Source: an uncultured Acidobacteriota bacterium (GTDB lineage Bacteria > Acidobacteriota > Thermoanaerobaculia > Multivoradales > JAHEKO01). Taken from it: a DNA stretch of 64,000 bases. The notes below the pieces were generated by a model. The model saw only the letters and a program-made list of their open reading frames with translations. It searched no databases and was not told the origin of the DNA. The stretch spans positions 352,001-416,000 of the forward strand of contig CAVQNG010000003.1 of NCBI GenBank assembly GCA_963713825.1, written 5' to 3'. Shown here in pieces: positions 50,474-61,861 of this stretch (position 1 is its first letter; each line of letters starts with the position of its first letter). The position numbers were made by a program, and so were the translations under genes.

Positions 50474-52630
50474 TCACTCGTCTTCGTAGTAGCTTCCCGC
50501 AGCAGGGGTGAGACGCCGGGCTTGTCCAATGAGGGTCACGAGATCCTGCACTCCCCGGTCACCGCGGAAATCAGCGGCGACAACCGCCGCCCGCTGCTCG
50601 AGCCTGTCGAGGCTGCCATCTTTGGCCCAGTAGGAGCCCTTGAGGATCTCGGCGAACTCCGCGACCACCGAGCTGAGACGTAGAGCCGGCGAGGCGTTCT
50701 CCCAACGGTTGGAGATATTCCTTCGCGTCAGATCGACGGCAGTTTCGACGACCTCACCAGAAGCCTTGGAGCGATACCGCAGCCGCAGTATGGCCAGAAG
50801 GTCACGCTTGCCGACATCCTCCTGGAGCTTGATCTCATATAGCGCGGTGATCTCGTGGCCAACACCGATCTCACCGGCGTCGACGCTGTCGTCGCGAAAT
50901 CGATCGTCGGCAATGTCCCGGTTCTCGTAGCCGATCAGACGATACCGGCTTACCGTTTCGGGATTGAACTCGACCTGGACCTTCGCGTCGGAGGCGATGG
51001 TCTGCAGAGTCCCCGTGAGGTTCTCGACGAAGATCCGTCGGGCCTCGTCCAGGGTATCGACGTAGGCGTAAGAGCCGTCGCCCTGATCGGCGAGCTGTTC
51101 CATCAACAGATCGTTGTAGTTGCCCATGCCGAAACCAATCGTGGTGAGCTCGACACCCTGGTCGGCACCGTTCTGGATGCGTTGCAGGATCGATTCTGGC
51201 CCGGTACGGCCGACGTTGGCGACGCCATCCGAGCACAGGATGATTCGGTTTATGGCGCCCCGGCGCCGGTAGCTTCTGGCGAGATCGTAGGCCAACGTCA
51301 GACCCTCCTCGGCGTTGGTCGAGCCATTTGGAACGAGACGCTGGATCGACCGCTCGATGGCGTACTTGTCACTGGTCGGCTCGAGTAGTATCTGCCCCCG
51401 GCTGCCGTAGACCACCAGACCGACCTGATCCTCGGGCTGCAACTGATCGAGCAGAAGCTCCAGAGAGCGCTTGACCAGACCGAGCCGATTCTCCTGCTGC
51501 ATCGAACCCGAGACATCGACCACGAAGATCAGCATGGCGGGCTGGCGCTCTGCGTCACTGATCTCACGACCCTTGATTCCAAACCGAACCAGCTGGTAGC
51601 GCGGCCCGGCGGCGAAGGGCGATGGCCCTCCCTCAGCGGTGATGGTGAACTCACCCCGGCGAGGGGCTGGATCGCCATAGTCGAAGTAGTTGATGAACTC
51701 CTCGACCCGGATGGCCTCACTCGGCGGCAGGTGACCTCGCTCGAGATAGCTGCGTGCAAGGGTGAAGGAGCCCGTGTCGACATCGAGCCCAAAGGTCGAC
51801 TGCGCATCGTCTTCGGTGTCGATAAACGGATTGGTGCCGTAACCCTTGAAGAACATGTCTCCGAAGGGATCGTCGTTGGGCTCGCGGGTTCCGCCCGTCG
51901 AAGGTGAAACGGTTGACTGGCTCTCCGGCGGCACTTCTCGAACTCTCCTTTGAGGCGCGTCAAGCATTCGCAGTGCCTCACGCCCTTCCTGGCTGCCGAG
52001 GTAGCTGTCGGTATCGACCTCATAGAAGCGGCCTGCGCTGGTATCGGCCATGTTGGAAGATTTCAGCTCTTCGGCCATTTCCGCAGCGGTTGGGGTTTCT
52101 TGCGGACTTTGCGTCTCGCTTCGTTTTGGCTCGATCGCAGATTCCAGCTCCACCCGCTCCCCATGTTCGCTCTCCGAGACATAGCCGAGGGCTTTCAGTC
52201 GCGTCTGCTCTTCAGCGGCCGCGGGGGGTGGTGGCGACGATGCGCCTTCGGTATCCACCGTAGTGACTGGATCGGCCGGGTCTGCTTCTCTGGCGACTGG
52301 CTCGACGGCATCTCTTTCGATGACAACTGGATCGACCGGGCTTGTCTCGGTGACGACTCGGCCCTCTGGCGCTTCTCGGCCTCCCAGCTGCGGCATAGAG
52401 GACTTCAAGGTCACTTGGAGGGCTAAATAGCCGCCCAACACCACAACAGCGATCGAGGCAGCGATCAGGCGGAGACGTCGGGCAGAAAAGGTGGCCTCCC
52501 GTTCGTCCTCGACCAGGTGAAGGTGGTCGGGAATCTCTTTCTGGATGCTCTCCAGAAGCCCCTCAGGCGGCTCGGGAGCTGCCGGCGGCGTCAGGCGATC
52601 TTCTATTCTCTTCATTTCGTTGCTATTCAC
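50474..52630 (-). CDS. YfbK-like vWA/DUF3520 membrane protein with anti-sigma-like N-terminus
   Basis: PPEGLLESI + TM helix, low-complexity linker, STFGLDVDTGS, DVSGSM (MIDAS), SDGVANVG, DAGEIG. Confidence 0.88.
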   Translation of the reverse strand: MNSNEMKRIEDRLTPPAAPEPPEGLLESIQKEIPDHLHLVEDEREATFSARRLRLIAASIAVVVLGGYLALQVTLKSSMPQLGGREAPEGRVVTETSPVDPVVIERDAVEPVAREADPADPVTTVDTEGASSPPPPAAAEEQTRLKALGYVSESEHGERVELESAIEPKRSETQSPQETPTAAEMAEELKSSNMADTSAGRFYEVDTDSYLGSQEGREALRMLDAPQRRVREVPPESQSTVSPSTGGTREPNDDPFGDMFFKGYGTNPFIDTEDDAQSTFGLDVDTGSFTLARSYLERGHLPPSEAIRVEEFINYFDYGDPAPRRGEFTITAEGGPSPFAAGPRYQLVRFGIKGREISDAERQPAMLIFVVDVSGSMQQENRLGLVKRSLELLLDQLQPEDQVGLVVYGSRGQILLEPTSDKYAIERSIQRLVPNGSTNAEEGLTLAYDLARSYRRRGAINRIILCSDGVANVGRTGPESILQRIQNGADQGVELTTIGFGMGNYNDLLMEQLADQGDGSYAYVDTLDEARRIFVENLTGTLQTIASDAKVQVEFNPETVSRYRLIGYENRDIADDRFRDDSVDAGEIGVGHEITALYEIKLQEDVGKRDLLAILRLRYRSKASGEVVETAVDLTRRNISNRWENASPALRLSSVVAEFAEILKGSYWAKDGSLDRLEQRAAVVAADFRGDRGVQDLVTLIGQARRLTPAAGSYYEDE

Positions 52631-53226
52631 TGCAAACCCCCTTCGAGGGTTGTTGCCAGTTGTTTGTAGGCGCGCGCGAGGCGCTTGCGGATGCCGACGG
52701 GGGAGAGCCCTTGGTGTCTGGCGATCTCGGCGACCGACAGCTCAGCCCAGAACCGCGCTGTCACAGCGAATCGGAGCTCATCGGGAAGCTCCAGAACAGC
52801 ACGTCGAAGCCGTTCGGCCTCGGCGCTCCTCGCTGTCGCTTCATCGGGGGTCTCGTCTGGATCGAGGAGTTGGTCGATCTGCTCCTCGGTCATCGGCTCG
52901 AGCCTTCTTGGACCCCGGATGTGATTCAGAAAGGTGTTGTACGCGATGCGATACAACCAGGTAGAGAACTTGCTGTTACCCCGGAACTTGCCGATCGACC
53001 GCCAGGCTTTGCGGTAGGTCTCTTGAGTGAGGTCGGCAACCAGCTCCTCGTCGCCGCCAGTGAGTCGGCACAACGATGCGAAGACGGCACGGTACGTACA
53101 GCGTGCCAGCGCATCCGCCGCGTCGAGGTCTCCCTTCGCGGCTCTTGGCCAGAGGACTGCCTCGTCGTCGGCCATCGGAGGCGGGCCACCTGGGTCGGGT
53201 GTTTCCACTGCGCTTATGCTCTCCAT
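52627..53226 (-). CDS. ECF RNA polymerase sigma factor
   Basis: DLTQETYRKAW, FSTWLYRIAYN, IRKRLARA; ATGA overlap with the vWA gene. Confidence 0.92.
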   Translation of the reverse strand: MESISAVETPDPGGPPPMADDEAVLWPRAAKGDLDAADALARCTYRAVFASLCRLTGGDEELVADLTQETYRKAWRSIGKFRGNSKFSTWLYRIAYNTFLNHIRGPRRLEPMTEEQIDQLLDPDETPDEATARSAEAERLRRAVLELPDELRFAVTARFWAELSVAEIARHQGLSPVGIRKRLARAYKQLATTLEGGLQ

Positions 53227-53445: not shown

Positions 53446-54126
53446 ATGAGTGCCAAGAGCAAGAATCTGCCCGTTCGCGTTCTGAAGATCTGGTTCGACG
53501 TCGCGCTTGTCCTTGGTGGCGCAGCCACTGTCGTCTTTCTGCTGTGGTTGACACTCTCACCGTTTCTGATGGCCGGCGGCGACCTGCAAGCCGACGCCAC
53601 GGTGCGCGTGGTTGTGGGAGAACGAAGCTGGATTCCTGTCTACGCGCTGGAGTTCATCCCGATGGGGGACTCTGGCGATTTCTGGATGGAAGAGGCCCGC
53701 CTGGTCAAAGCCGGCGGGGAGCTACGGTTTCTCACCACGAGCTGGTGGCTACACTTCGCCTCGCTCGGCGAAATCATGCTGGGCGCGATCATCGTCCTCT
53801 ACATAATCTGGAGCCTGCGCAAACTCCTTGTCAACGTGCTCGATGATCGGCCGTTCGCAGCCGCCAACGGGCAGATCCTGCGCCGGTCCGGCTTCATCAT
53901 CTTGATTGTGGGCGCTGTTTGGCCGGTGGCGGACTTTGCTCTCTCCGACTACGTTCTGTCGCGCATCGATGTCGCCAACATCGATCTTCGCCCGGCCATC
54001 ACTCTCGACAAGAACGTCTTCGTCGTCGGTCTCTTGTTCCTCGTCTTCGGCGCCATCCTGACTCACGGCCACGAGCTCCAGGAGCACGAACGGGCGCTGG
54101 AAGAAGAGCAGGCCTTCACCATCTAG
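53446..54126 (+). CDS. DUF2975 family membrane protein
   Basis: Four TM helices, PFAAAN, C-terminal GHELQ...EEEQAFTI. Confidence 0.85.
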   Translation: MSAKSKNLPVRVLKIWFDVALVLGGAATVVFLLWLTLSPFLMAGGDLQADATVRVVVGERSWIPVYALEFIPMGDSGDFWMEEARLVKAGGELRFLTTSWWLHFASLGEIMLGAIIVLYIIWSLRKLLVNVLDDRPFAAANGQILRRSGFIILIVGAVWPVADFALSDYVLSRIDVANIDLRPAITLDKNVFVVGLLFLVFGAILTHGHELQEHERALEEEQAFTI

Positions 54127-54143
54127 ACGGACGAGCGATCACA

Positions 54144-54356
54144 ATGCCCATCCAAGTGAACCTCGACCTGATGCTGGTGAAACGCAAGGTGTCGCTCACC
54201 GAGCTCGCAGATCGCGTCGGCATCACCATCGCCAACCTGTCGATCCTCAAGACAAACAAGGCTCGGGCGGTTCGCTTCTCCACTCTCGCGGCGCTTTGTC
54301 GCGAGCTCGATTGTCAGCCGAGCGATCTGCTGGAATACGTTGACGACATTCAGTAA
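54144..54356 (+). CDS. XRE/Cro-CI HTH regulator (YozG-like)
   Basis: MPIQVNLDLML, ITIANLSILKTNKARAVRFSTL, CQPSDLL. Confidence 0.92.
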   Translation: MPIQVNLDLMLVKRKVSLTELADRVGITIANLSILKTNKARAVRFSTLAALCRELDCQPSDLLEYVDDIQ

Positions 54357-54419: not shown

Positions 54420-56003
54420 CTATTCCTGGCGACCGAACAGGCCCATGGACTTGACCAATCTCGACTCGATCGGCCATCGGGTCTCGAGGTTGGAGACGCG
54501 ATACCGTGCCACCGGGTAATAGAGCTTGGCCAACGCGACCACCAGGGGATTCGTCTTCTTGTACGGATTGACGAAGTGTCCCTTGCCCAGGAACATCAGA
54601 GGAAAATCAAGCGCCGTGATCATCTTCTTGGTGGCAGCCGGCAGCCAGGGTGAATCAGCTGCCACGTTGCGGAAGTTGAAGTGCCCCCACCCCTCGAGGG
54701 TTGCGGGCTCGCGCAATCCCTGCTCGACACAGACGTCGTACAACTGTGTTCCCGGGTATGGCGTGTAGATGTTGAAGGTCTTGACGGCTCTGGGGTTCTC
54801 GTCCGTGAGCTGGACCGCCAGCTGAATACTCTCTTCGAGCTCTGCGGGGGTCTCCGAGGGCAGTCCCATCATGAACAGGTAGATGGGCACGATCGGATAG
54901 GGAATCAGCTTCCTATTGGCCTCGATTACCTGCTCTACGGTGACGTCCTTCTTGATCAAGTCGAGAAGCCGTTGGCTGCCGGACTCGACCCCGACTGTGA
55001 GGCGCTTGACCTTCGCCTGAACCAGGAGCTCCAGAAAGTCCTCATCCATCTTGCAGATGGTGTCCGCTCGGATCTGCAGCTTGCTGATGGAGATGTCCAG
55101 GTCGGCACGAACGATGGCCTCCAAGATGGACCGCGCCCGCTTCATGTCGATGAAGAAGTGGTCGTCGGTAAACAGGAATCCACGGATGTCGTGGTCAGTG
55201 ATGATGCGTTGCAGCTGCTCGAGTACGGTATCCGGCTGCATCGCTCGCCATTTCCGCTTGTGCATCACCGGGTCCCAACAGAAGTTACAGCGGAAGGTGC
55301 AGCCCCGGCTGGAATTGAAACTGACGTGATCGATGCCAAAGAGCCGCCGTCGATAGCGGTTCATGTCGATCAGATGGTAGGAGAGAGGCGCCTGCTCGTC
55401 CATATTCACGAAGGGCCGCTCGCCGGTCCACCGGAAGCCGTTGGACTCCACCACTGGACCAGCGCAGGAGCTGTCGGCTTGGGGTTTCAGGACAGGCAGG
55501 ATCGATCCAGCCTCGGCGCGCACAGTGCCGGAAGCGGCGGAAGTCTCTCCATCTTCCTTGTACCAGATGCCGGCGACCTGGCTCAGCGGCGTCCCTGACT
55601 CCAGAGCTTTGACCAACTCCAGAAACGTCTCTTCGCCCTCACCCACGACGACGATATCCACCAGGGGATGCGACAGGGTCTGCTGCGGCATCAGGCTGGC
55701 GTGAACGCCTCCCCAAACGATCGGCACGTCAGGGTGTCGCTTGCGCACCAACCTGCAACCTTCGAGCGCATGCCAGATCTGAGGTCCCGTCATACAGGTG
55801 ACACCGAAGCAAATCGGCCGCTCCTCGATGCCAGCCAACAACTCCTGCTTCCAATCTGGATTGGCAAACTCGTCGATGATCTGGATGCGGTAACCGAGGC
55901 GATCCAATGGCGTCGCCGTGCACAACAGGCTCAAGGGCAGCTCCACCCGTCGCTGCACTTGCTTGCCTGCCCTCGGCGCTGGATTGAAAAGTACGATGTC
56001 CAT
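54420..56003 (-). CDS. B12-binding radical SAM protein
   Basis: B12 domain (WGGVHAS, GEGEET), SSRGCTFRCNFC (CxxxCxxC), GVESGS, PYPGT. Confidence 0.92.
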   Translation of the reverse strand: MDIVLFNPAPRAGKQVQRRVELPLSLLCTATPLDRLGYRIQIIDEFANPDWKQELLAGIEERPICFGVTCMTGPQIWHALEGCRLVRKRHPDVPIVWGGVHASLMPQQTLSHPLVDIVVVGEGEETFLELVKALESGTPLSQVAGIWYKEDGETSAASGTVRAEAGSILPVLKPQADSSCAGPVVESNGFRWTGERPFVNMDEQAPLSYHLIDMNRYRRRLFGIDHVSFNSSRGCTFRCNFCWDPVMHKRKWRAMQPDTVLEQLQRIITDHDIRGFLFTDDHFFIDMKRARSILEAIVRADLDISISKLQIRADTICKMDEDFLELLVQAKVKRLTVGVESGSQRLLDLIKKDVTVEQVIEANRKLIPYPIVPIYLFMMGLPSETPAELEESIQLAVQLTDENPRAVKTFNIYTPYPGTQLYDVCVEQGLREPATLEGWGHFNFRNVAADSPWLPAATKKMITALDFPLMFLGKGHFVNPYKKTNPLVVALAKLYYPVARYRVSNLETRWPIESRLVKSMGLFGRQE

Positions 56004-56015
56004 TGCGCTCCTGAC

Positions 56016-56996
56016 TCAGTCTTCCGACGTTTCGCCTCTATTGGCCCCCGCCGGTGCGCTCTGAAGGCGACGCTCGCCGCCCACCAGGTCGGGATTGAAC
56101 GCTTCGAACTCGGCGGGCTCGGCAAGATGGCTCGGGGATCGATGATCGAAAGCGTACTCTCCTACCACCGGGGCCAGGCCAGACACCGGAACACCGCTCC
56201 TTTCAGCGACCAATTTGGACACGGGACGAAGCTGAGACAGGTCGATTCCGGTCTCGAAGCCCTCACGCCCGAGGAGCACCGCCACCTGCTCGAGACTGGC
56301 ATTGCCCGCCCGGTCGCCCAGTCCATTGATGGTCGCATCGATAACCGACGCACCCGCCAGAACCGCGGCCAAGGAGTTCGCGGTGGCCAGGCCCAAGTCG
56401 TTGTGACCGTGAAAGATCACCGTCGTACCCAGCTCTCCGACCAAACGGCCGACGATCTCGCGAACGCCAAACGGCTCGGCGCTGCCGTTGGTGTCGTAGA
56501 AAGTGATTCGCCCGGCACCGGCAGCGGCCGCCTGGCCAGCGATGTCAACGACAAAATCCTCATCGGTCTGGCTGGAGTGGGGAAACCCCACACCGACGTC
56601 GGAAAAGTGCTGGCAGGCCCAGGACAGAGCCTCCAGCATCATGGATACCTTGCCCTTGCGGGATGTGGGCTCACGCCTGGCCGACAACGGCACGAGCAGG
56701 TCGATACGATCGAGAAGGGCCGCAGCCTGCTCCACCTCACCTCGGAACTCAGGGGACGAAGCGTAGATCAACCCGGAGAGACGCAGACCGACCGCCGACT
56801 CCCGAAGCGCGCGGACAACTTCGAGGTCCGCCTCGACGCGGCTTGGCGCGACGACCTCTGCCTCCGCAACACCCAGCTGAGCCAAGGCCGTGGCAATCTC
56901 AGTCCGAGCTGCCATGTCGAACCACACCCCAGGGGTGTCCATGGCCTCCCTCAGGGTCGAGTCTCGCAGGATGATATGGCGCTTTGAATCCGGCAA
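56016..56996 (-). CDS. DRE-TIM metallolyase, homocitrate/isopropylmalate-synthase-like (divergent)
   Basis: DSTLREAMDTPG, DTNG, FHGHNDLGLATANSLAA, NGLGDRAGNA; probable TTG start at 56996 with GAGGAG RBS. Confidence 0.85.
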   Translation of the reverse strand: MPDSKRHIILRDSTLREAMDTPGVWFDMAARTEIATALAQLGVAEAEVVAPSRVEADLEVVRALRESAVGLRLSGLIYASSPEFRGEVEQAAALLDRIDLLVPLSARREPTSRKGKVSMMLEALSWACQHFSDVGVGFPHSSQTDEDFVVDIAGQAAAAGAGRITFYDTNGSAEPFGVREIVGRLVGELGTTVIFHGHNDLGLATANSLAAVLAGASVIDATINGLGDRAGNASLEQVAVLLGREGFETGIDLSQLRPVSKLVAERSGVPVSGLAPVVGEYAFDHRSPSHLAEPAEFEAFNPDLVGGERRLQSAPAGANRGETSED

Positions 56997-57031
56997 TGGA
57001 GAATCTCCTCGGGAGAACGGCCCTGCTCGGG

Positions 57032-58219
57032 TCAGTCCCCCGCCTCCCACTCCTCGGCCCACGCTTCCGGAACAACCTTACCGTCCGGCCTACCTGTACC
57101 GCTGGTGAGACACACCAGGACTCGGGTGCCGGCGGCAATCCGGCCGGCGGCAATCTCTTTCAGCGTCCCGGTCAGTGCCAGCAGGCCCGTCGTTTCCACG
57201 ATCTCTCCTTCTCGGACGAATATGTTCACGCCTGCTGCCGCCAGGACGTCCAAGATCCCGGCACCGTCGAATTCGTCCTCCAGTAGACGTCTGAAGTCTG
57301 CCGAGTCTACAAGAGTCAGATCACCTTTCGTCTCGCCCAGAATTCCGCGCAACTCCTCGACCGTACCGTAGCTTTGCGGGCTGGCGTCATACATGACACG
57401 GGTCAGGAGCCGCCCCGTTGAATCGATCTCTGAACCGACCTCTCCCGCTCCGGCGCCCGTGTCAGTACCCCGTAGGGCGCGATACATGGGGCAATTGGGG
57501 GCTTGCTGGACACCGAGAAAGCTCGGCAGTCGACCCAGGTCGTGCTTGTGCTGGCGCAGCACCCGAAAGATGCCGATGGGGGCAAAGGCTGCGCTGATGG
57601 TCTGGGCCAGAATGTCGAACCGCAACCCAGAGAGCATGGCTTCGAGCAGGAAGCTGCCGATGAACGTCGATGCCTCCAGGCGCCACTCGGGCTGCGGAAC
57701 CTTGGGGAGCCCCTCGCGCTTGCGAAGCTCACTGGCCACTTGCTTGACGCGGTGACGATCCCGCACAGCAATGAGATGCGTGGTCGTAGCCTCGAAGGCG
57801 GCACTGTCCAGGAGACTGAGATTCTCGCCTGGGAGAACCAGGTACGTCTCCAGTCCGACCCGCCTGCCGTAAATGGAAAGTGCTGTACCAGTGTTGCCGC
57901 CCGACTCGAACGCGACCTTCTGATACCCCCGCTGCAGCGACCTCGCGATCGAGACCGCTCCGTCGATCGACTTCAGGGTGTGCGTGTGCATCAGGGAGGT
58001 CTCATCCAGCACCGAAATCTCCACGTCGCGGTAGGTAAGGAGCGGCAAGATCCTCAGCCCCTCACGGATGCTCGTGCGTTCCAGGAGCCCCTTGAAAGCC
58101 TCATCGTCGGCTGGCGACTCCTCGAAGCGCAGGCAGTTCCGATACCGCAGAACCACGCTTTGCTCGCCGCTATGACGCCGATCGATAGCGCCCAGAAACT
58201 CACTCGCCGAAGAATTCAT
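57032..58219 (-). CDS. PLP-dependent fold-type II enzyme, threonine/cysteate-synthase-like (divergent)
   Basis: EGLRILPL, HTHTLKSIDG (PLP Lys), ESGGNTG, GVQQ, VLVCLTSG. Confidence 0.8.
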   Translation of the reverse strand: MNSSASEFLGAIDRRHSGEQSVVLRYRNCLRFEESPADDEAFKGLLERTSIREGLRILPLLTYRDVEISVLDETSLMHTHTLKSIDGAVSIARSLQRGYQKVAFESGGNTGTALSIYGRRVGLETYLVLPGENLSLLDSAAFEATTTHLIAVRDRHRVKQVASELRKREGLPKVPQPEWRLEASTFIGSFLLEAMLSGLRFDILAQTISAAFAPIGIFRVLRQHKHDLGRLPSFLGVQQAPNCPMYRALRGTDTGAGAGEVGSEIDSTGRLLTRVMYDASPQSYGTVEELRGILGETKGDLTLVDSADFRRLLEDEFDGAGILDVLAAAGVNIFVREGEIVETTGLLALTGTLKEIAAGRIAAGTRVLVCLTSGTGRPDGKVVPEAWAEEWEAGD

Positions 58220-58772
58220 GATGCGTCATCTCTGCCAGAGGCCGTAGTTGTTTGGTCGGGGGCGTCTCGTCCGGATAGCCAAGAGGGAGAAGGGTCACCA
58301 GCCGAATCCCCTCGGGTAAACGCAGGAGCTTACCGAGCTCCACTTCGAGGCCGCGATCGTGTGGCTGGTAGGCCGACAGATAGACGCTGCCGAGCCCCTT
58401 GTCTTGCGCCGCCAAGAGCAGCCATGCGGTGGCCAGAACGCCATTCTCCAGGTCGCGGCCAAAGGACCGGTCCTGATCCACCCCCACCGCCACAATCACC
58501 GGGGCCCGGGAAACAAAGTCGGCCAGGAAGGAGCTCTTCTCAGCTGGGCAGAAACGGTTCTTGAGCTCGCTGATCCGCCTCTTGGTCTCGGCATCACGGA
58601 CAACGACAAAGCACCACGGTTGCCCATTCATGGACGAAGGTGCCTGCCTCGCTGACTCCAGGATCTCTGTTATCACCGCCTCCGGCACGTCTCGAGTCTG
58701 GTAGCGGCGAATCGACCGGCGTTGCAGGACAACCTCTTCGAAATTCTGGGCTGACACAGTTCTCTCTCCCAT
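58200..58772 (-). CDS. Nitroreductase family flavoprotein
   Basis: RRSIRRY, APSSMNGQPWCFVVV, GLGSV, LGYP. Confidence 0.92.
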   Translation of the reverse strand: MGERTVSAQNFEEVVLQRRSIRRYQTRDVPEAVITEILESARQAPSSMNGQPWCFVVVRDAETKRRISELKNRFCPAEKSSFLADFVSRAPVIVAVGVDQDRSFGRDLENGVLATAWLLLAAQDKGLGSVYLSAYQPHDRGLEVELGKLLRLPEGIRLVTLLPLGYPDETPPTKQLRPLAEMTHHEFFGE

Positions 58773-58798
58773 CCGTGAAGATTCTCGATCCTGGAGGA

Positions 58799-60019
58799 CT
58801 ATAGTCGCAGTGACCTGCGAAAGTACGGCTTGGACAGAGCTCCCACCAGGGACACCGGTAGCCAGCCACGGCGGTGGCCTTCCAGTGCCAGGTTCATCAA
58901 ACGGGAGCTGGCCGAAGGATTCTCTGCTGCAGCCCTCACCGCCTGGTGTCGCTCCACGGCGATCGGCTCCGCGATCGAGCGCACGGTGAGCCCGCGGCTG
59001 TCGGCCTGCTCGAGAAGATCCGTCATCATTCTTCTCATCCAGTTGTCGATGAGGTTCGCTGCCTCCTGCAGGGCGATGCCGGCAAAATCCATCGTGCCGC
59101 CCAGGACTCCACCGCTGTTACACACGAAATCGGGAAGGTAGAGGTGGCCGCGATCGAAAAGAGCCGCCTCGGCTTCTGGAGTCGCCGGATTGTTGGCACC
59201 CGGACAGATGATGGGAGCAGCGATCCGAGAGACATTGTCCTGGTGCAGTGAGTAGTGCCGTGCACAAGGAAGAAGCAGGTCGACGGGCAACTCGAGCAGC
59301 TCATGGCGTTGCAGTACGAGCTTGGGGTCGTACTCTTTGACGATTCGGCTGCCCATTTCCCTTGCCATGCCCCGTAGTCGATCGATATCCAAGCCCTCGG
59401 GGTCGTAGAGAGCTCCCTGCGAGGTAGATATCGCCACCACCTTTGCACCGCGACTGCTAAGCAAATCTGCCACCACAGAACCCACACTTCCGAAGCCTTC
59501 GATCGCGACCTTGCTGCCTACAAGGCTGCCCTGCCGCCACTCCACGGCTGCCTGAGCGGCCGCCACACAGCTCACCGCGGTGTAGTAGCCGGAGTCCCTC
59601 CCACGCCACTCGCGGTGCTTCACCGCTAGACCGATGGAGCACATCATCGAGCGTATGTCCTCTCCTCGGGTGCCCAGGTCGGCATCGGGTTGATAAACCC
59701 TCTGCATGAGATAGGGACGAACAGCAGCTGCAAAGTCGCTCAACAACCGCTGCCTTTCCTCTGGTGGCGCTTCGGCATCGCCGCGAATTCCCGCCTTGGC
59801 TCCTCCCTGAGGCAATCCAAGGAGACCGTACTTCAGCGTCATCGCGCGGGCTGCCACGCACAGCTCGACCTCGCTGAGATCAGGAACGATCCGCAGGCCG
59901 CCCCGGGAGCACTCACCAATTGTGGAGTCGATGACGATGAAAGCCGCCGGGGACTCCCCGCCTCCGACCTCGATAACGCGCTGCTCGTCGCGCTGACGGC
60001 TCTCGACTTCCCAGGTCAT
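58799..60019 (-). CDS. Glu/Leu/Phe/Val dehydrogenase family protein (divergent)
   Basis: RGGLR, MTLKY, GGAKAGI, IEGFGSVG, GANNP, PDFVCNSGGV. Confidence 0.88.
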   Translation of the reverse strand: MTWEVESRQRDEQRVIEVGGGESPAAFIVIDSTIGECSRGGLRIVPDLSEVELCVAARAMTLKYGLLGLPQGGAKAGIRGDAEAPPEERQRLLSDFAAAVRPYLMQRVYQPDADLGTRGEDIRSMMCSIGLAVKHREWRGRDSGYYTAVSCVAAAQAAVEWRQGSLVGSKVAIEGFGSVGSVVADLLSSRGAKVVAISTSQGALYDPEGLDIDRLRGMAREMGSRIVKEYDPKLVLQRHELLELPVDLLLPCARHYSLHQDNVSRIAAPIICPGANNPATPEAEAALFDRGHLYLPDFVCNSGGVLGGTMDFAGIALQEAANLIDNWMRRMMTDLLEQADSRGLTVRSIAEPIAVERHQAVRAAAENPSASSRLMNLALEGHRRGWLPVSLVGALSKPYFRRSLRL

Positions 60020-60198
60020 GACGGAACCTGCCGCACCACGAGCTTGAACTTCCGGGATTCTGGAGGTGGAAAGAAGTCAGTCTGGACCAGAGAAACATCC
60101 ATGTCTTCGTGTGTGAGGCGCCACAAAATCTGGAGCAATCACCACCGACTCGCCTCTGAGGCACTGTCTGGGTTCGCGCCTCCGTAGGGGAGAGCCAT
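60016..60198 (-). other. Candidate short ORF with an in-frame TGA, coupled to the dehydrogenase start
   Basis: MALPYGGANPDSASEASRW-[TGA 60139-60141]-LLQILWRLTHEDMDVSLVQTDFFPPPESRKFKLVVRQVPS*; the stop overlaps the next ATG (ATGA). Confidence 0.3.
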
Positions 60199-60316
60199 CA
60201 GGAATTCGGCAGTCAATTCAAGTGCGAACTGTACCAGTCTCTCTGGTTCCCTGGGACAGTAGATCCGGGTCGCCAGGAGAGACTTCCGGATCGATGTCGA
60301 TCAGTACGATCAGGCG

Positions 60317-61666
60317 TCAGTCGACCGCGGCACCAACGGCGAAACCCGGATCGCTGTCCGGGTCGAACCCGAGCGCGTCTCGGTCCAGGATCCGGCCTCC
60401 CCGCATCACCATGTGTATGTCACGAGTCCGACGGATGTCCCGGTCGGGCCGACCCTCGACGACGATCAGGTCGGCCACCTTGCCGGCGGTGATGGTGCCC
60501 CAGTCGTCGGCACCGATCAGAAGCGCTGCGTTCCGCGTCGCAGTCGTGATGGCTTCGAGAGGGGACAGCCCCGCCTCCACGAGTAGCTCGAGCTCCCGGT
60601 GGATGCCCTCCCCCTGAGCCACACCCGGATAGGGAGCGTCGGTGCCCGCGACCAACAGAATACCTGCTCGGTGCAGCCTTTGGACGTTCTTCGTGGCGAT
60701 GTCGAGCTTCACTCCGCTAGCCGCGGCAACCTTCTTGTCCTCGTCCGTGAGGTCCTGGGTCGCGTGCTCCCGCAGGGCAGCCAGAAAGGCGGGCGGAGTG
60801 GTGTTCGCGATCAACGGGTGGTCGAGGAAAGCCGGCTCCTCGAACCGCCGCCGCGAGTGCGACTCCTGCACCGCCAGGGTGGTGATGACCATGGTCTTCT
60901 TCTCGACGATCAGGTCGAAGCTGAGCTGGTCGATCTCGCGCGTCGGCGCGTGGGCAAGTGCGGCGATCCCGGCGGCGGTCACGTCATAGGAGCCGTTGCG
61001 ACTCCAGAGATCGGCAATCACGGGAAGAGAGCTCCCAGAGGCGACCTCGACCAGTTCACGAAGAAGTGGAACCGAAAGTCCCCCGTACGCTTTGACAGCG
61101 TCGACGCCGGAGCGCTCCAGCATCGCGACCACATCGGCTACCTGGGAGTCGATGACAAGACCGACTGAAAACGGCGGCCATGATGGATCGGCATCGTCCA
61201 CCAGCGGACCGACACAGTAGATCCGGGGACCGGCGATGGTGCCTGCCGCGACCTCGTCCCGGAGCTGCAGAACAAACGGCATGATATTCCCAAGATCGAA
61301 GACAGTGGTGACCCCGGAGTACAGAAGGGCATTCAGATACCTTTGATAGCCGAGCCAATCCGAACCGACGCCATCCCACCCGCCCATCAGATGGACGTGC
61401 ATGTCAGCGAGACCTGGCATCACGGCTCTTCCCTCGAGGTCGATCACTCTTGCGTCAGTCGGGAGGCGGACCCTAGCCGCCTCACCCACGGCCTCGATCC
61501 GCCCATCACGCACCAGGACCACGCCGTTCTCGACGGGCGTTCCACCGTTTCCGTCGATGACCACGCCACCAATGAGGGCGACAGGGCTTTCACCGAACAC
61601 CACTCCGGGGCACACGAGTGCCATGACAAGGCTGAGCACTCGCACGATCCTCTTGCCACTGGCCAT
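60317..61666 (-). CDS. Secreted amidohydrolase family protein
   Basis: Signal peptide; MPGLADMHVH, GVTTVFDLG, VAGTD, GKVADL. Confidence 0.88.
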   Translation of the reverse strand: MASGKRIVRVLSLVMALVCPGVVFGESPVALIGGVVIDGNGGTPVENGVVLVRDGRIEAVGEAARVRLPTDARVIDLEGRAVMPGLADMHVHLMGGWDGVGSDWLGYQRYLNALLYSGVTTVFDLGNIMPFVLQLRDEVAAGTIAGPRIYCVGPLVDDADPSWPPFSVGLVIDSQVADVVAMLERSGVDAVKAYGGLSVPLLRELVEVASGSSLPVIADLWSRNGSYDVTAAGIAALAHAPTREIDQLSFDLIVEKKTMVITTLAVQESHSRRRFEEPAFLDHPLIANTTPPAFLAALREHATQDLTDEDKKVAAASGVKLDIATKNVQRLHRAGILLVAGTDAPYPGVAQGEGIHRELELLVEAGLSPLEAITTATRNAALLIGADDWGTITAGKVADLIVVEGRPDRDIRRTRDIHMVMRGGRILDRDALGFDPDSDPGFAVGAAVD

Positions 61667-61796
61667 CTTCAGGTCCTCCTCAACTGGTGGGTCCGCTCGT
61701 CGCCGTGCATTTCTCCGTCAGTCTCGTTAGATGCACCCGACTCCCAGTTGGTTGCGCACCCATTCCAGGTGTAGACGCTCCTTCCACCGGCGGGGC

Positions 61797-61829
61797 AAGA
61801 AAAAGCGCCGGGGAGTTGCCCCCCCGGCG
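61797..61829 (-). terminator. Rho-independent terminator after the TonB-dependent receptor
   Basis: CGCCGGGG/CCCCGGCG stem followed by CTTTTTCTT on the minus strand. Confidence 0.75.
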
Positions 61830-61861
61830 ATAAAGCGTGTGGCCTGGTTTGAATGGACGAC

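What the first reader, a model, noticed from the sequence alone, without database searches (positions are those of the whole stretch)
54420..60019. Candidate novel biosynthetic operon: amino-acid dehydrogenase, nitroreductase, PLP synthase, keto-acid condensing enzyme and B12 radical SAM
Seen: five co-oriented genes with gaps of 26, -20, 35 and 12 nt, three of them with clearly altered active-site motifs. There is no NRPS/PKS, PEP mutase or LeuB/LeuCD in the window. Established: fold-type II PLP enzymes such as cysteate synthase do beta-replacement on phosphoserine; DRE-TIM synthases add acetyl-CoA to 2-oxo acids (PMS/FrbC in phosphinothricin and FR-900098 pathways); B12 radical SAMs methylate unactivated C or P (PhpK, Fom3). 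Inference: the set could build a heteroatom-substituted alanine (S, P, As or other), deaminate it to the 2-oxo acid, chain-extend it and methylate it. That parallels phosphinothricin-type logic for an unknown non-proteinogenic amino acid or lipid head group. I know no described cluster with this composition.
Basis: partly seen in the sequence, partly recalled or inferred. Interest (0 to 1): 0.85.

Follow-up and report, generated by a model that had tools for sequence, protein, structure and literature searches.

The report
Conserved five-enzyme acid-building cassette, product unknown
Five neighbouring genes in this sediment acidobacterium form a real, widely shared but uncharacterised enzyme set that probably makes an unusual methylated amino or keto acid, which in most other bacteria carrying it appears to be attached to cell-surface sugars.

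Summary
Five co-oriented minus-strand genes lie at 54420-60019 with gaps of 26, -20, 35 and 12 nt. They encode a GDH-fold dehydrogenase, a nitroreductase-fold flavoprotein, a ThrC-fold PLP enzyme, a short LeuA/NifV-type DRE-TIM enzyme and a B12 radical SAM. None reaches any NCBIfam equivalog cut-off, and all are under purifying selection within the genus (dN/dS 0.09-0.20).

In 81 related loci the flavoprotein-PLP-DRE-TIM trio is nearly invariant (62 of 63 and 57 of 57 loci with room). A B12-rSAM is present in 33 of 36 loci, and all five genes in 13 of 16 large loci. MAG labels span five phyla, but only 5 of 401 sampled Acidobacteriota genomes carry the cassette.

Elsewhere it sits inside co-oriented Wzx/glycosyltransferase clusters. 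These also carry methyltransferases, a second B12-rSAM and varied carboxylate-activating ligases (PaaK-like, Mur-ligase, NRPS) plus an AsnB-type amidotransferase.

The PLP clade is tiny and pairs with three unrelated flavoprotein folds. The DRE-TIM family has replaced a conserved Glu with His.

Best reading: a building-block module for a modified, C-methylated acid that decorates glycans. The product is unknown. In this genome the adjacent ligase survives only as a 50-codon remnant.

The parts
58799..60019 (-). GDH-fold (ELFV) NAD(P)-dependent amino-acid dehydrogenase, 406 aa (P0001)
   Evidence: Pfam ELFV_dehydrog 145 bits plus the N-terminal domain 49 bits. The best NCBIfam hit is 145 bits against a cut-off of 620. 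Alignment to T. maritima GDH 1b3b and to 21 orthologues shows MTLK, GGAKAG and the Asp conserved. The position before GGLR (Lys in GDH) is variable, and the Ser of 'VSYFE' is Gly within a conserved GGVLGGT.
58200..58772 (-). Nitroreductase-fold FMN flavoprotein, 190 aa (P0002); overlaps the next gene by 20 nt
   Evidence: Pfam Nitroreductase 84 bits. The best PDB sequence hits are uncharacterised nitroreductases 4dn2 and 4g8s and a bacterial iodotyrosine deiodinase. It lies directly upstream of the PLP gene in 62 of 63 loci with room. The two ORFs overlap in 57 of 58 loci.
57032..58219 (-). ThrC-fold (fold-type II) PLP enzyme of a small separate clade, 395 aa (P0003)
   Evidence: PALP 39.8 bits. 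ThrC and cysteate-synthase models score 28.5 and 21.8 bits against cut-offs of 303 and 325. The AF2 model has pLDDT 87. Its nearest structures are threonine synthases, TM 0.58-0.74 at 15-20% identity. K83 is invariant in M-x-T-x-T-L-K-S-I-D-G. The family profile finds only 485 of 1.84 billion representatives at E<=1e-3.
56016..56996 (-). Short LeuA/NifV-type DRE-TIM (HMGL-like) enzyme without a regulatory domain, 326 aa from TTG 56996
   Evidence: HMGL-like 168 bits. NifV model 217 bits against a cut-off of 463. Best PDB hits are homocitrate synthase 6ktq and IPMS 3rmj. The R-E, H-x-H and NGLGDRAGNA motifs are kept. GEQ reads AMD here (family consensus GLD), and the LeuA 'F-S-x-E-D-x-x-R' stretch reads G-F-P-H-S-S-Q-T, with F-P-H in at least 90% of 58 sequences. 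Start codon.
54420..56003 (-). B12-binding radical SAM enzyme (class B type), 527 aa (P0005), with a genus-specific insertion of about 36 aa at residues 153-188
   Evidence: B12-binding 67 bits and Radical_SAM 85 bits. The CxxxCxxC motif is seen in the translation. The best NCBIfam hit is BchE at 152 bits against a cut-off of 481, and the PhpK family scores 90 against 600. It is the most conserved of the five genes (92% within the genus, 61-69% across phyla). The insertion shows.
60019..60168 (-). Remnant (last ~47 codons, with an in-frame stop) of the PaaK-like adenylate-forming ligase gene that abuts the dehydrogenase gene in congeners
   Evidence: tblastn of the L020 ligase (416 aa) gives 66% identity over residues 370-416 at window 60168-60019, with one internal stop. 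No credible match to the rest of the protein was found in 59800-64000. The intact gene overlaps the ELFV start in L012 and L020. Its best NCBIfam hit is the DVU_1553 family AMP-dependent CoA ligase, below cut-off.

Best explanation
The five genes are one functional module: a laterally distributed 'building-block' cassette that makes a modified carboxylic acid, either an amino acid or a 2-oxo/hydroxy acid, from central metabolites. What is shown: the genes are intact, constrained, non-housekeeping paralogues. They travel together across distant lineages. Their invariant heart is a translationally coupled flavoprotein and ThrC-fold PLP enzyme, followed by a remodelled LeuA/NifV-type DRE-TIM enzyme. 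One or two B12-radical SAM enzymes and a GDH-fold dehydrogenase nearly always accompany them. What is inferred: the dehydrogenase interconverts a 2-oxo acid and its amino acid. The PLP enzyme, helped by its flavoprotein, remodels the side chain at C-beta or C-gamma. The DRE-TIM enzyme makes or breaks a C-C bond at a 2-oxo acid. The B12-rSAM(s) methylate an unactivated carbon. In most lineages the acid is then activated by PaaK-like, Mur-ligase-type or NRPS enzymes, with an AsnB-type amidotransferase often encoded alongside. It is probably attached to a Wzx-exported surface glycan. In this genome the module is stripped down: the neighbouring ligase is a 50-codon remnant and no glycan genes flank it. 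Here the product is therefore either a free metabolite or is coupled by enzymes encoded elsewhere.
For: Domains. None of the five reaches any equivalog cut-off.

Purifying selection: dN/dS is 0.09-0.20 against three congeners and 0.13-0.30 against a Vicinamibacteria locus.

Synteny: all five genes lie in the same order in same-genus loci and in a Vicinamibacteria MAG at 49-61% identity, while the flanks differ.

Counts over 81 loci (L016-L096; 73 have under 60% PLP identity to the window):
- Flavoprotein directly upstream of the PLP gene: 62 of 63 loci with room.
- DRE-TIM directly downstream: 57 of 57.
- B12-rSAM in the locus: 33 of 36.
- All five genes: 13 of 16 large loci.
- The dehydrogenase sits either upstream or displaced downstream, so the genes co-occur despite rearrangement.

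When unlinked, the rSAM is still in the genome: 4 of 4 carrier genomes tested.

A distant variant in G080 (PLP 35% identical) keeps DRE-TIM, PLP, B12-rSAM, ELFV, a methyltransferase, Wzx and a PaaK-like ligase. It swaps the nitroreductase for a Flavin_Reduct protein. A third subclade of the PLP family is fused to an acyl-CoA-dehydrogenase-fold flavoprotein (2 of 2 scanned).

Recurrent co-oriented neighbours: methyltransferases in 39 loci, Wzx/GT2 in 22, rSAM-SPASM in 14, PaaK-like ligases in 7, cupins in 7, AsnB-like in 6 and GT4 in 6. Mur ligases, an NRPS C-A-T module with a PPTase, and a polysaccharide deacetylase also occur.

Distribution is patchy: 5 of 401 sampled Acidobacteriota genomes.
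Against: No chemistry, expression or structural data show what is made.

In the window itself no glycan, ligase or methyltransferase gene flanks the cassette, and the ligase is degraded. The glycan link therefore rests on other lineages.

Surface-polysaccharide regions often collect accessory genes, so adjacency there is weaker evidence than the core synteny.

The DRE-TIM family lacks the Glu and Gln found in the aligned homocitrate and isopropylmalate synthases, so it may not condense acetyl-CoA at all.

Three loci lack a B12-rSAM (L028, L054, L058) and three large loci lack the dehydrogenase (L037, L057, L058). Not every component is obligatory.

The loci are related sequences, and several come from sister samples, so the counts are not independent events.
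Confidence: 0.55

Rival explanations
1. The PLP enzyme does a cysteate-synthase-like beta-replacement on O-phosphoserine with a heteroatom nucleophile. The dehydrogenase deaminates the product to the 2-oxo acid. The DRE-TIM enzyme adds acetyl-CoA for chain extension, as Pms and FrbC do. The B12-rSAM then methylates C or the heteroatom, following phosphinothricin-type logic.
For: The family assignments fit. A cysteate-synthase model and the CapA2 cysteate synthase structure are among the weak relatives of the PLP enzyme. The PLP family's invariant Arg180 aligns with the Arg of the ThrC 'P-x-R-x-E-G-Q' stretch, which I recall as a phosphate ligand. The dehydrogenase pocket differs from GDH. SsuA/NMT1-like and alkaline-phosphatase-superfamily genes occur in some clusters.
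Against: No PEP mutase lies in or near the window. The PhpK family model scores 90 bits against a cut-off of 600. In 88 related loci only one distant LeuC-like hit was found and no LeuB-like hit, so iterative chain extension is not encoded. The motif Glu and Gln present in the aligned homocitrate and isopropylmalate synthases are replaced across this family. The scheme gives no role to the flavoprotein, which is the PLP enzyme's tightest partner. No kinase or phosphoserine-supplying gene is in the cassette.
Confidence: 0.15
2. The genes are not one pathway to one small molecule. The B12-rSAM(s), with the flavoprotein as their electron donor, modify the glycan or a lipid carrier directly, for example by C-methylating a sugar. 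The PLP, DRE-TIM and ELFV enzymes separately supply or recycle a common amino acid or keto acid.
For: B12-rSAMs need a reductant, and flavoproteins are plausible donors (general knowledge). Two rSAM paralogues, an rSAM-SPASM protein and several methyltransferases accompany the cassette in glycan clusters. In G196 the rSAMs are unlinked from the other genes.
Against: The flavoprotein stays coupled to the PLP gene in the loci that lack any rSAM: L028, L054 and L058, and L104 within the 20 kb fetched. In one subclade a flavoprotein is fused to the PLP domain itself. In the window's genus the five genes stand alone with no glycan genes nearby, yet they stay under purifying selection.
Confidence: 0.12
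3. Ordinary amino-acid metabolism: a redundant or alternative route for threonine, leucine, lysine or glutamate metabolism, or a catabolic operon.
For: All five families have housekeeping members.
Against: Scores lie far below every equivalog cut-off. The genome's thrC-model search does not pick up this PLP gene and finds better candidates elsewhere. Separate HMGL-like, LeuC and LeuB genes exist elsewhere in the genome. Only 5 of 401 sampled Acidobacteriota genomes carry the cassette. The PLP clade is minute compared with the ThrC family.
Confidence: 0.05
4. Cofactor biosynthesis, for example a cobamide lower ligand. This is suggested by the BluB-like score of the flavoprotein and the BzaD-like score of the rSAM.
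For: BluB is the best NCBIfam hit of the flavoprotein, at 70 bits against a cut-off of 150. The BzaD model scores 92 bits against 450 for the rSAM.
Against: Both scores are far below cut-off. No ThiC/BzaA-like or CobT-like partner was seen among the recurrent neighbours. The recurrent context is Wzx, glycosyltransferases and ligases.
Confidence: 0.03

Closest known systems
2-oxo-acid elongation modules (LeuA-LeuCD-LeuB; AksA/AksDE/AksF; and Pms/FrbC in the phosphinothricin and FR-900098 pathways). The pathway descriptions are recalled, not tested here.
   Same: A LeuA/NifV-type DRE-TIM enzyme sits beside enzymes that interconvert amino and 2-oxo acids. The best family and structure hits are homocitrate and isopropylmalate synthases. 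It is a short form without a regulatory domain, like HCS (passages of PMC9860122).
   Different: The cassette encodes no isomerase or dehydrogenase partner, with only 1 LeuC-like hit in 88 loci. No PEP mutase is nearby. The family replaces the motif Glu with His, and GEQ with GLD or AMD.
Threonine synthase and cysteate synthase (fold-type II PLP enzymes)
   Same: The fold matches: threonine synthases are the best PDB fold matches, and CapA2 cysteate synthase appears lower in the list. The Schiff-base Lys, the S-G-G-N-T carboxylate loop and an Arg aligning with the ThrC 'R-x-E-G-Q' stretch are present.
   Different: Identity is only 15-20%. Model scores are about a tenth of the cut-offs. ThrC's N-S and G-N-A-G-N stretches are not kept. 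The clade is tiny. It always comes with a flavoprotein, in three different folds.
Class B (cobalamin-dependent) radical SAM enzymes such as TsrM, TokK, OxsB, Fom3, GenK and PhpK. Their functions are recalled; TsrM-type (6wte), TokK and OxsB are hits.
   Same: An N-terminal B12-binding domain plus a radical SAM core with CxxxCxxC. The PDB sequence relatives are a Trp C2-methyltransferase, AprD4, TokK and OxsB.
   Different: No equivalog model is approached; the best is BchE at 152 bits against 481. The substrate is unknown. The gene is often duplicated in tandem within the cluster.
Exopolysaccharide and O-antigen loci that carry their own acyl or amino-acid decoration genes, for example XrtA/PEP-CTERM loci with an AsnB-type amidotransferase and an acyl-CoA ligase. 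The family names come from NCBIfam; the biology is recalled.
   Same: Co-oriented Wzx flippase, GT2 and GT4 glycosyltransferases, a polysaccharide deacetylase, an AsnB-like amidotransferase whose best model is the XrtA/PEP-CTERM amidotransferase, and PaaK-like ligases.
   Different: My ten literature searches found no described locus with this five-enzyme supply module. The amidotransferase scores below its model's cut-off (475 against 817). The window itself has none of the glycan genes.

Membership tests
Glutamate dehydrogenase (ELFV family) | ELFV catalytic and dimerisation domains, with the catalytic Lys in G-G-x-K-x-G | tested here: met
   Pfam 145 and 49 bits. GGAKAG aligns with GGGKGG of 1b3b and is conserved in 21 orthologues.
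Glutamate dehydrogenase (ELFV family) | Glutamate-specific pocket: Lys before G-G-(I/L)-R and Ser in 'VSYFE' (roles recalled), plus an equivalog score | tested here: not met
   The position before GGLR is Arg here and variable across the family. The Ser position is Gly within a conserved GGVLGGT. The best equivalog scores 145 bits against a cut-off of 620.
Threonine synthase / cysteate synthase | Fold-type II PLP fold with a Schiff-base Lys | tested here: met
   PALP 39.8 bits. ThrC structures are the best fold matches, TM 0.58-0.74. K83 is invariant.
Threonine synthase / cysteate synthase | Score at or above the equivalog cut-off; recognised by the thrC model | tested here: not met
   28.5 bits against 303 (ThrC) and 21.8 against 324.9 (cysteate synthase). 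A TIGR00260 search of the genome lists 8 places, none of them this gene.
Threonine synthase / cysteate synthase | Phosphate-binding residues for an O-phospho-amino-acid substrate | tested here: inconclusive
   Invariant R180 aligns with the Arg of ThrC 'P-x-R-x-E-G-Q'. The N-S and G-N-A-G-N stretches of ThrC are not conserved. Which ThrC residues bind phosphate is recalled; the search found no source.
LeuA/NifV/HCS-type Claisen-condensing DRE-TIM enzymes | HMGL-like TIM barrel with an R-(D/E) metal/substrate pair and an H-x-H metal pair | tested here: met
   HMGL-like 168 bits. TLRE, FHGHND and NGLGDRAGNA align with 6ktq and 3rmj and are conserved in 58 sequences.
LeuA/NifV/HCS-type Claisen-condensing DRE-TIM enzymes | Conserved Glu of the 'E-D-x-x-R' strand and Gln of 'G-E-Q' (catalytic roles recalled), plus an equivalog score | tested here: not met
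   Glu is replaced by His (G-F-P-H-S) and the Arg by Thr. GEQ reads AMD here and GLD in the family. The NifV model scores 217 bits against 463 and the LeuA models score at most 204 against 517 or more.
Class B cobalamin-dependent radical SAM enzymes | B12-binding domain plus a radical SAM core with CxxxCxxC | tested here: met
   Pfam 67 and 85 bits. C-T-F-R-C-N-F-C is seen in the translation.
Class B cobalamin-dependent radical SAM enzymes | Methyl transfer to an sp3 carbon or to phosphorus | not testable with these tools
   No equivalog is reached (BchE 152/481, HpnJ 120/578, PhpK family 90/600). Some members of this class are not methylases (BchE, OxsB and AprD4 are among the hits).
Phosphinothricin / FR-900098-type phosphonate pathway | PEP mutase with Pms/FrbC and PhpK orthologues in one cluster | tested here: not met
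   PEP_mutase family hits in the genome lie only at C5:374764 and C3:1440829, far from the window. The PhpK family model scores 90 bits against 600.
Characterised biosynthetic cluster (MIBiG entry) | Match of gene content to a catalogued cluster | not testable with these tools
   No MIBiG or antiSMASH resource was available. Ten full-text searches found no description of this gene set.

The most novel reading that the evidence does not exclude
The ThrC-fold PLP clade may be a new kind of flavin-coupled PLP enzyme. Its flavoprotein partner comes in three folds: nitroreductase-fold, Flavin_Reduct-fold, or a fused acyl-CoA-dehydrogenase fold. That partner would take a hydride from, or give one to, the PLP-bound amino acid. 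This would create the alpha,beta-unsaturated intermediate that threonine synthase normally reaches by expelling phosphate, so an unactivated amino acid could be functionalised at C-beta without a leaving group. Together with a His-for-Glu DRE-TIM enzyme and one or two B12-rSAM C-methylases, the module would build a previously unknown, heavily branched acidic amino or hydroxy acid. That acid would decorate the surface glycans of uncultured sediment bacteria from at least five phyla.
Probability: 0.2. Interest if true: 0.85.

Novelty: new variant of a known kind. Interest (0 to 1): 0.66.

Why it matters
If the reading holds, this is a compact, portable pathway to an undescribed non-proteinogenic acid. 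It recurs in uncultured Acidobacteriota and in MAGs labelled Nitrospirae, Gemmatimonadota, Thermodesulfobacteriota and Dadabacteria. It would therefore point to an unknown chemical decoration of bacterial cell surfaces in sediments.

It also isolates three enzyme puzzles that can be tested at the bench:
- a minute ThrC-like clade that never travels without a flavoprotein;
- a LeuA/NifV-like enzyme family that has exchanged a conserved active-site Glu for His;
- an uncharacterised, very well conserved B12-radical SAM subfamily.

Each could extend the known reaction range of its superfamily. The five-gene form in this window is the minimal version and so the most convenient one to express.

Tried and rejected

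Complex prediction: the PLP enzyme with the nitroreductase, both as 16-row alignments, returned 'no answer' (score 0.01). It counts neither for nor against binding.

Expression: no RNA holder was listed for the stretch. The DNA is held by sediment, salt-marsh and marine-sediment runs from 13 studies.

Apparent nitroreductase-PLP fusion: P0150 (680 aa) matches the two proteins in separate blocks joined by Arg-rich filler. I take it for a frameshifted gene call and do not use it. P0201 was not examined further.

Longer fused forms: a search for forms of 693-2000 aa found none, which is weak evidence.

More distant hits: the PALP proteins fused to ribulose-phosphate epimerase, PRK or RpiB score like ordinary fold-type II enzymes. 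I set them aside as outside the clade.

Protein Atlas: it gave only generic names. DUF6002, carried by 44% of one neighbouring Atlas cluster, has no literature in the library.

Literature: ten full-text searches found nothing on this gene set. Of the listed papers I read only passages of PMC9860122. That paper says the accessory domain is needed for IPMS catalysis and that HCS lacks the regulatory domain. The other papers I saw only as search listings. Supplementary files were not consulted, and no claim here depends on them.

O-antigen acyl groups: I considered heavily methylated 5-oxoproline acyl groups, recalled from the Vibrio and Pseudomonas O-antigen literature, as a possible product type. 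The gene content would suit them (methylases, a GDH-like enzyme, an amidotransferase). I could test nothing, so this stays a lead only.

Composition: the region shows no atypical base composition. The terminator and promoter scans were uninformative: 0 promoter-like sites, and 2 terminator-like sites against 4.2 expected.

Unpublished genome: G006 gave only a weak hit (E 3.4e-4).

Full report
WHAT IS THERE. Five intact ORFs lie head to tail on the minus strand:
- a 406-aa ELFV-type dehydrogenase (58799-60019);
- a 190-aa nitroreductase-fold protein (58200-58772);
- a 395-aa PALP protein (57032-58219);
- an HMGL-like protein (56016-56996);
- a 527-aa B12-binding radical SAM protein (54420-56003).

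For the fourth gene the mechanical ORF starts at GTG 57062. TTG 56996 has GAGGAG 8 nt upstream and matches the 326-aa orthologue of L012. Pfam confirms every family. No protein reaches any NCBIfam equivalog cut-off. The nearest models are GdhB 145/620, BluB 70/150, ThrC 28.5/303, cysteate synthase 21.8/325, NifV 217/463, BchE 152/481 and the PhpK family 90/600.

In the whole 5.4-Mb genome, the Aconitase, Iso_dh, PEP_mutase, Condensation and ketoacyl-synt families hit only outside C3:352001-416000.

The immediate flanks are unrelated genes. Upstream lie an amidohydrolase and an ORF without a Pfam family. Downstream, on the other strand, lies an HTH_26/DUF2975 pair, followed by an ECF sigma factor, a VWA/YfbK_C protein and a beta-lactamase-fold protein.

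THE GENES ARE NOT HOUSEKEEPING COPIES AND ARE MAINTAINED. A thrC-model search of the genome lists eight places, and none is this gene. Other HMGL-like genes and the only LeuC/LeuB pair lie elsewhere. Against three congeners, dN/dS of the five genes is 0.09-0.20. Against a Vicinamibacteria locus it is 0.13-0.30.

SYNTENY.
- The PLP protein has close orthologues in 5 of 5 same-genus genomes and a partial one in one other genus of the family. It is missing from most relatives searched: 11 of 41 genomes match at E<=0.001, and only seven of those strongly.
- Named MAG contigs place the genus in Acidobacteriota/Thermoanaerobaculia.
- All five genes occur in the same order in these loci and in a Vicinamibacteria MAG at 49-61% identity. 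None of the window's flanking genes is shared.
- In a sample of the phylum, 5 of 401 genomes (4 of 227 genera) carry the PLP gene at E<=1e-40. The cassette is therefore a rare accessory element in this phylum.
- Across all sources the PLP protein has 415 relatives at E<=1e-5 among the 8000 candidates scored. More than 100 of them are 49-56% identical. Where sources give names, they are MAGs labelled Nitrospirae, Gemmatimonadota, Thermodesulfobacteriota, Dadabacteria and Thermoanaerobaculia. The annotations are only 'threonine synthase', 'PLP-dependent enzyme' or 'hypothetical'.

A metagenome scan with a 20-sequence alignment kept 80 loci of 231 confirmed relatives. Together with L016 these make 81 loci. 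Two are at least 99% identical to the window, six are 70-98% identical, and 73 are under 60%. In these loci:
- the nitroreductase gene ends within 150 nt upstream of the PLP gene in 62 of 63 loci that have at least 650 nt of room;
- the DRE-TIM gene starts within 350 nt downstream in 57 of 57 loci with at least 1200 nt of room;
- a B12-rSAM is in the locus in 33 of 36 with at least 3 kb downstream, and directly after the DRE-TIM gene in 29 (missing in L028, L054 and L058);
- all five genes are present in 13 of 16 loci with at least 2.5 kb upstream and 6 kb downstream (L037 and L057 lack the dehydrogenase; L058 lacks the dehydrogenase and the rSAM).

The dehydrogenase gene is sometimes upstream, as in the window, and sometimes several kb downstream. 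That is co-occurrence surviving rearrangement. Fifteen loci carry two paralogous B12-rSAMs, which are 48% identical in L036. Using the most upstream start codons, the nitroreductase and PLP ORFs overlap in 57 of 58 loci, typically by 23, 20 or 4 nt. In G196 the trio, with a divergent methyltransferase and dehydrogenase, is on one contig and two tandem rSAMs are on another. All 4 carrier genomes tested have an rSAM of at least 60% identity. These loci are relatives, and some come from sister samples, so the fractions describe conservation, not independent events.

CONTEXT ELSEWHERE. I clustered the other ORFs of the 81 loci and scanned one to three representatives per cluster. Recurrent, almost always co-oriented neighbours are:
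- class-I SAM methyltransferases (39 loci);
- Wzx-type flippases and GT2 glycosyltransferases (22 loci; one single-linkage cluster merges both);
- an rSAM-SPASM protein (14);
- alkaline-phosphatase-superfamily 'Phosphodiest' proteins (8) and FAD amine oxidases (8);
- PaaK-like adenylate-forming ligases (7), cupins (7), AsnB-type amidotransferases (6) and GT4 (6);
- a soluble 530-aa protein with no Pfam family (5) and polysaccharide deacetylases (5);
- NRPS C-A-T modules (4, two of them with a PPTase);
- in single loci, two Mur-ligase paralogues, a P450, a GT87 and a GFO/IDH/MocA oxidoreductase.

The best model for the PaaK-like ligases is the DVU_1553 family CoA ligase. The best model for the amidotransferases is the XrtA/PEP-CTERM system amidotransferase, at 475 bits against a cut-off of 817.

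Maps of 23 long loci show the cassette embedded in what look like surface-glycan clusters. L036 is an example: GT2, GT2, GFO, GT4, GT2, Wzx, MT, NTR, PLP, DRE-TIM, rSAM, MT, rSAM-SPASM, rSAM, cupin, cupin, ELFV.

The kind of carboxylate-activating enzyme beside the cassette changes from lineage to lineage: PaaK-like, Mur ligase or NRPS. I read this as a sign that the cassette delivers a carboxylic or amino acid that is then coupled to something else, although what it is coupled to, and by what bond, was not tested.

A DISTANT VARIANT AND THE FLAVOPROTEIN. Genome G080 has a PLP gene only 35% identical to the window's (E 3e-89 to the family profile). Around it lie a DRE-TIM gene (32% identical), a B12-rSAM (63%), Phosphodiest, an NMT1/THI5-like protein, the no-family protein, methyltransferases, a PaaK-like ligase, a Wzx flippase and an ELFV dehydrogenase. 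Between the PLP and rSAM genes sits a Flavin_Reduct (PF01613) protein in place of the nitroreductase.

The family profile, run against 1.84 billion representative proteins, finds only 485 at E<=1e-3 and 121 at E<=1e-30. Ordinary threonine synthases are therefore not even reached. Among the hits are four proteins of 742-757 aa. In the two I scanned, an acyl-CoA-dehydrogenase-fold flavoprotein is fused to the N-terminus of the PLP domain, which is 28% identical to P0003 over 346 residues.

So three unrelated flavoprotein folds are attached to this one PLP clade. The nitroreductase also stays with the PLP gene in loci that lack any rSAM: L028, L054 and L058, and L104 within the 20 kb fetched. I infer that the PLP enzyme's chemistry itself needs a flavin, rather than the flavoprotein merely reducing the rSAM.

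ACTIVE SITES.
- PLP enzyme. The AF2 model is confident (pLDDT 87, pTM 0.89). Its best structural matches are threonine synthases (TM 0.58-0.74, 15-20% identity). Threonine deaminases, O-ureidoserine synthase and CapA2 cysteate synthase follow. The Schiff-base Lys (K83), an S-G-G-N-T-G loop and a Q-Q-x-x-N-C-P-M block are invariant or nearly so. Invariant W179-R180 aligns with the Arg of the ThrC 'P-x-R-x-E-G-Q' stretch, while the ThrC N-S and G-N-A-G-N stretches are not kept. From recall, that Arg binds the substrate phosphate in ThrC. If so, a distal anionic group on the substrate, whether phosphate, carboxylate or sulfonate, is plausible. I could not confirm the residue roles from a paper.
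- DRE-TIM enzyme. R-E, H-x-H, Y-D-T-N-G and N-G-L-G-D-R-A-G-N-A align with homocitrate synthase 6ktq and IPMS 3rmj. 'G-E-Q' reads A-M-D here (family consensus G-L-D). The 'F-S-x-E-D-x-x-R' strand reads G-F-P-H-S-S-Q-T, with F-P-H in at least 90% of 58 family members. From recall, that Glu belongs to the catalytic base system of LeuA and HCS. Its replacement suggests altered chemistry or a different base. The protein ends soon after the H-x-S-P-x-H-L stretch, so it has at most part of the accessory domain and no regulatory domain. Passages of PMC9860122 state that HCS likewise lacks the regulatory domain and that the accessory domain matters for catalysis.
- Dehydrogenase. M-T-L-K, G-G-A-K-A-G, the Asp and the G-F-G-x-V-G nucleotide loop are conserved. 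The GDH Lys before G-G-(I/L)-R is Arg here and variable in the family. The GDH Ser in 'V-S-Y-F-E' is Gly within a conserved G-G-V-L-G-G-T. It is a working dehydrogenase with a non-glutamate pocket.
- rSAM. It has CxxxCxxC. It is the most conserved of the five genes (92% within the genus, 57-69% in most distant loci). In this genus it carries a 36-aa insertion.

THE WINDOW'S OWN VERSION IS REDUCED. In congeners L012 and L020 a 416-431-aa PaaK-like ligase gene overlaps the start of the dehydrogenase gene. In the window only its last ~47 codons survive at 60019-60168, at 66% identity and with an in-frame stop. No credible trace of the rest is found upstream, and an amidohydrolase gene follows at 60317. 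The genome has four other PaaK-like genes elsewhere at 32-37% identity to the cluster-type ligases.

HOW IT MOST LIKELY WORKS. What is shown is the gene set, its conservation and its partners. The chemistry is inferred.

I commit to a building-block module. A 2-oxo acid/amino acid pair is handled by the dehydrogenase. The side chain is remodelled by the flavin-assisted ThrC-fold enzyme. A C-C bond is made or broken at the 2-oxo carbon by the DRE-TIM enzyme. The B12-rSAM(s) add C-methyl group(s). The order of these steps is open. The product is an acid that ligases attach to a Wzx-exported glycan in most lineages. I put 0.55 on the module reading and about 0.4 on glycan decoration as the product's usual fate.

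It must rely on housekeeping LeuCD/LeuB, because 88 related loci (747 kb) hold only one distant LeuC-like hit and none for LeuB. It also leaves the flavoprotein idle.

NOVELTY. All five superfamilies are well known. What my searches did not find described is their conserved combination, the flavoprotein-dependent ThrC-like clade and the His-for-Glu DRE-TIM family. No MIBiG or antiSMASH comparison could be run. I therefore rate it a new variant of a known kind, meaning a glycan-associated small-molecule supply cluster, with interest 0.66. It is well supported as a real and widespread unknown, but no product is in hand.

Noticed in passing
window 60019-60168 (-): A pseudogene remnant of a PaaK-like ligase: the last ~47 codons at 66% identity to the congener gene, with an in-frame stop. 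It lies directly upstream of the dehydrogenase gene. The rest of the gene appears to have been deleted or replaced, and an amidohydrolase gene follows at 60317-61666.
   Followed up: yes
window 54420-56003 (-), residues 153-188 of P0005: The B12-radical SAM protein carries an insertion of about 36 aa between the B12-binding and radical SAM domains. The insertion is present in the same-genus orthologues, which align over residues 1-527. It is absent from the L036 paralogue aligned, and distant loci encode proteins of about 490 aa (for example L036, 491 aa).
   Followed up: partly
window 53446-54356 (+): A DUF2975 protein ORF (53446-54126) and an HTH_26 (Cro/C1-type) regulator ORF (53919-54356) lie in different frames and overlap by about 200 nt as the mechanical ORFs are drawn. 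They run convergent to the end of the cassette. The same pair follows the cassette in the near-identical metagenome contigs L018 and L019.
   Followed up: no
window 50474-53226 (-): An ECF-type sigma-70 gene (52627-53226) overlaps by 4 nt a 718-aa protein carrying vWF_A, VWA and YfbK_C domains. The arrangement looks like a sigma factor with a possible anti-sigma or partner protein.
   Followed up: no
window 61862-64000 (-): A long ORF runs off the window end (573 aa from the first start codon, 712 aa open-ended). The 573-aa form had no Pfam family at E<=0.001.
   Followed up: no
G000:C3:638194-638992 (outside the window): An HMGL-like paralogue matches the Pfam model in two adjacent pieces in different open frames (profile positions 4-144 and 148-258). 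It may be a frameshifted or split LeuA/CimA-like gene.
   Followed up: no
L028, L054, L105 (G080): A soluble protein of 467-539 aa has no Pfam or NCBIfam family and no TM-like segment by my hydropathy scan of three copies. It recurs beside the cassette: twice in L028 and once each in L054 and G080. It is often next to an NMT1/THI5-like protein and a methyltransferase. L028 and L054 are loci that lack the B12-rSAM. The window's genome has homologues of 30-38% identity on C25 and C34.
   Followed up: partly
P0150 (protein cluster representative): This 680-aa protein looks like a nitroreductase-PLP fusion. However, it matches the two proteins in separate blocks joined by Arg-rich filler, as a gene call running through frameshifts would.
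   Followed up: partly
L011:5560-6771 (+): In one congener a 403-aa double-cupin protein follows the B12-rSAM gene in the same orientation. The window has no counterpart at that position.
   Followed up: no
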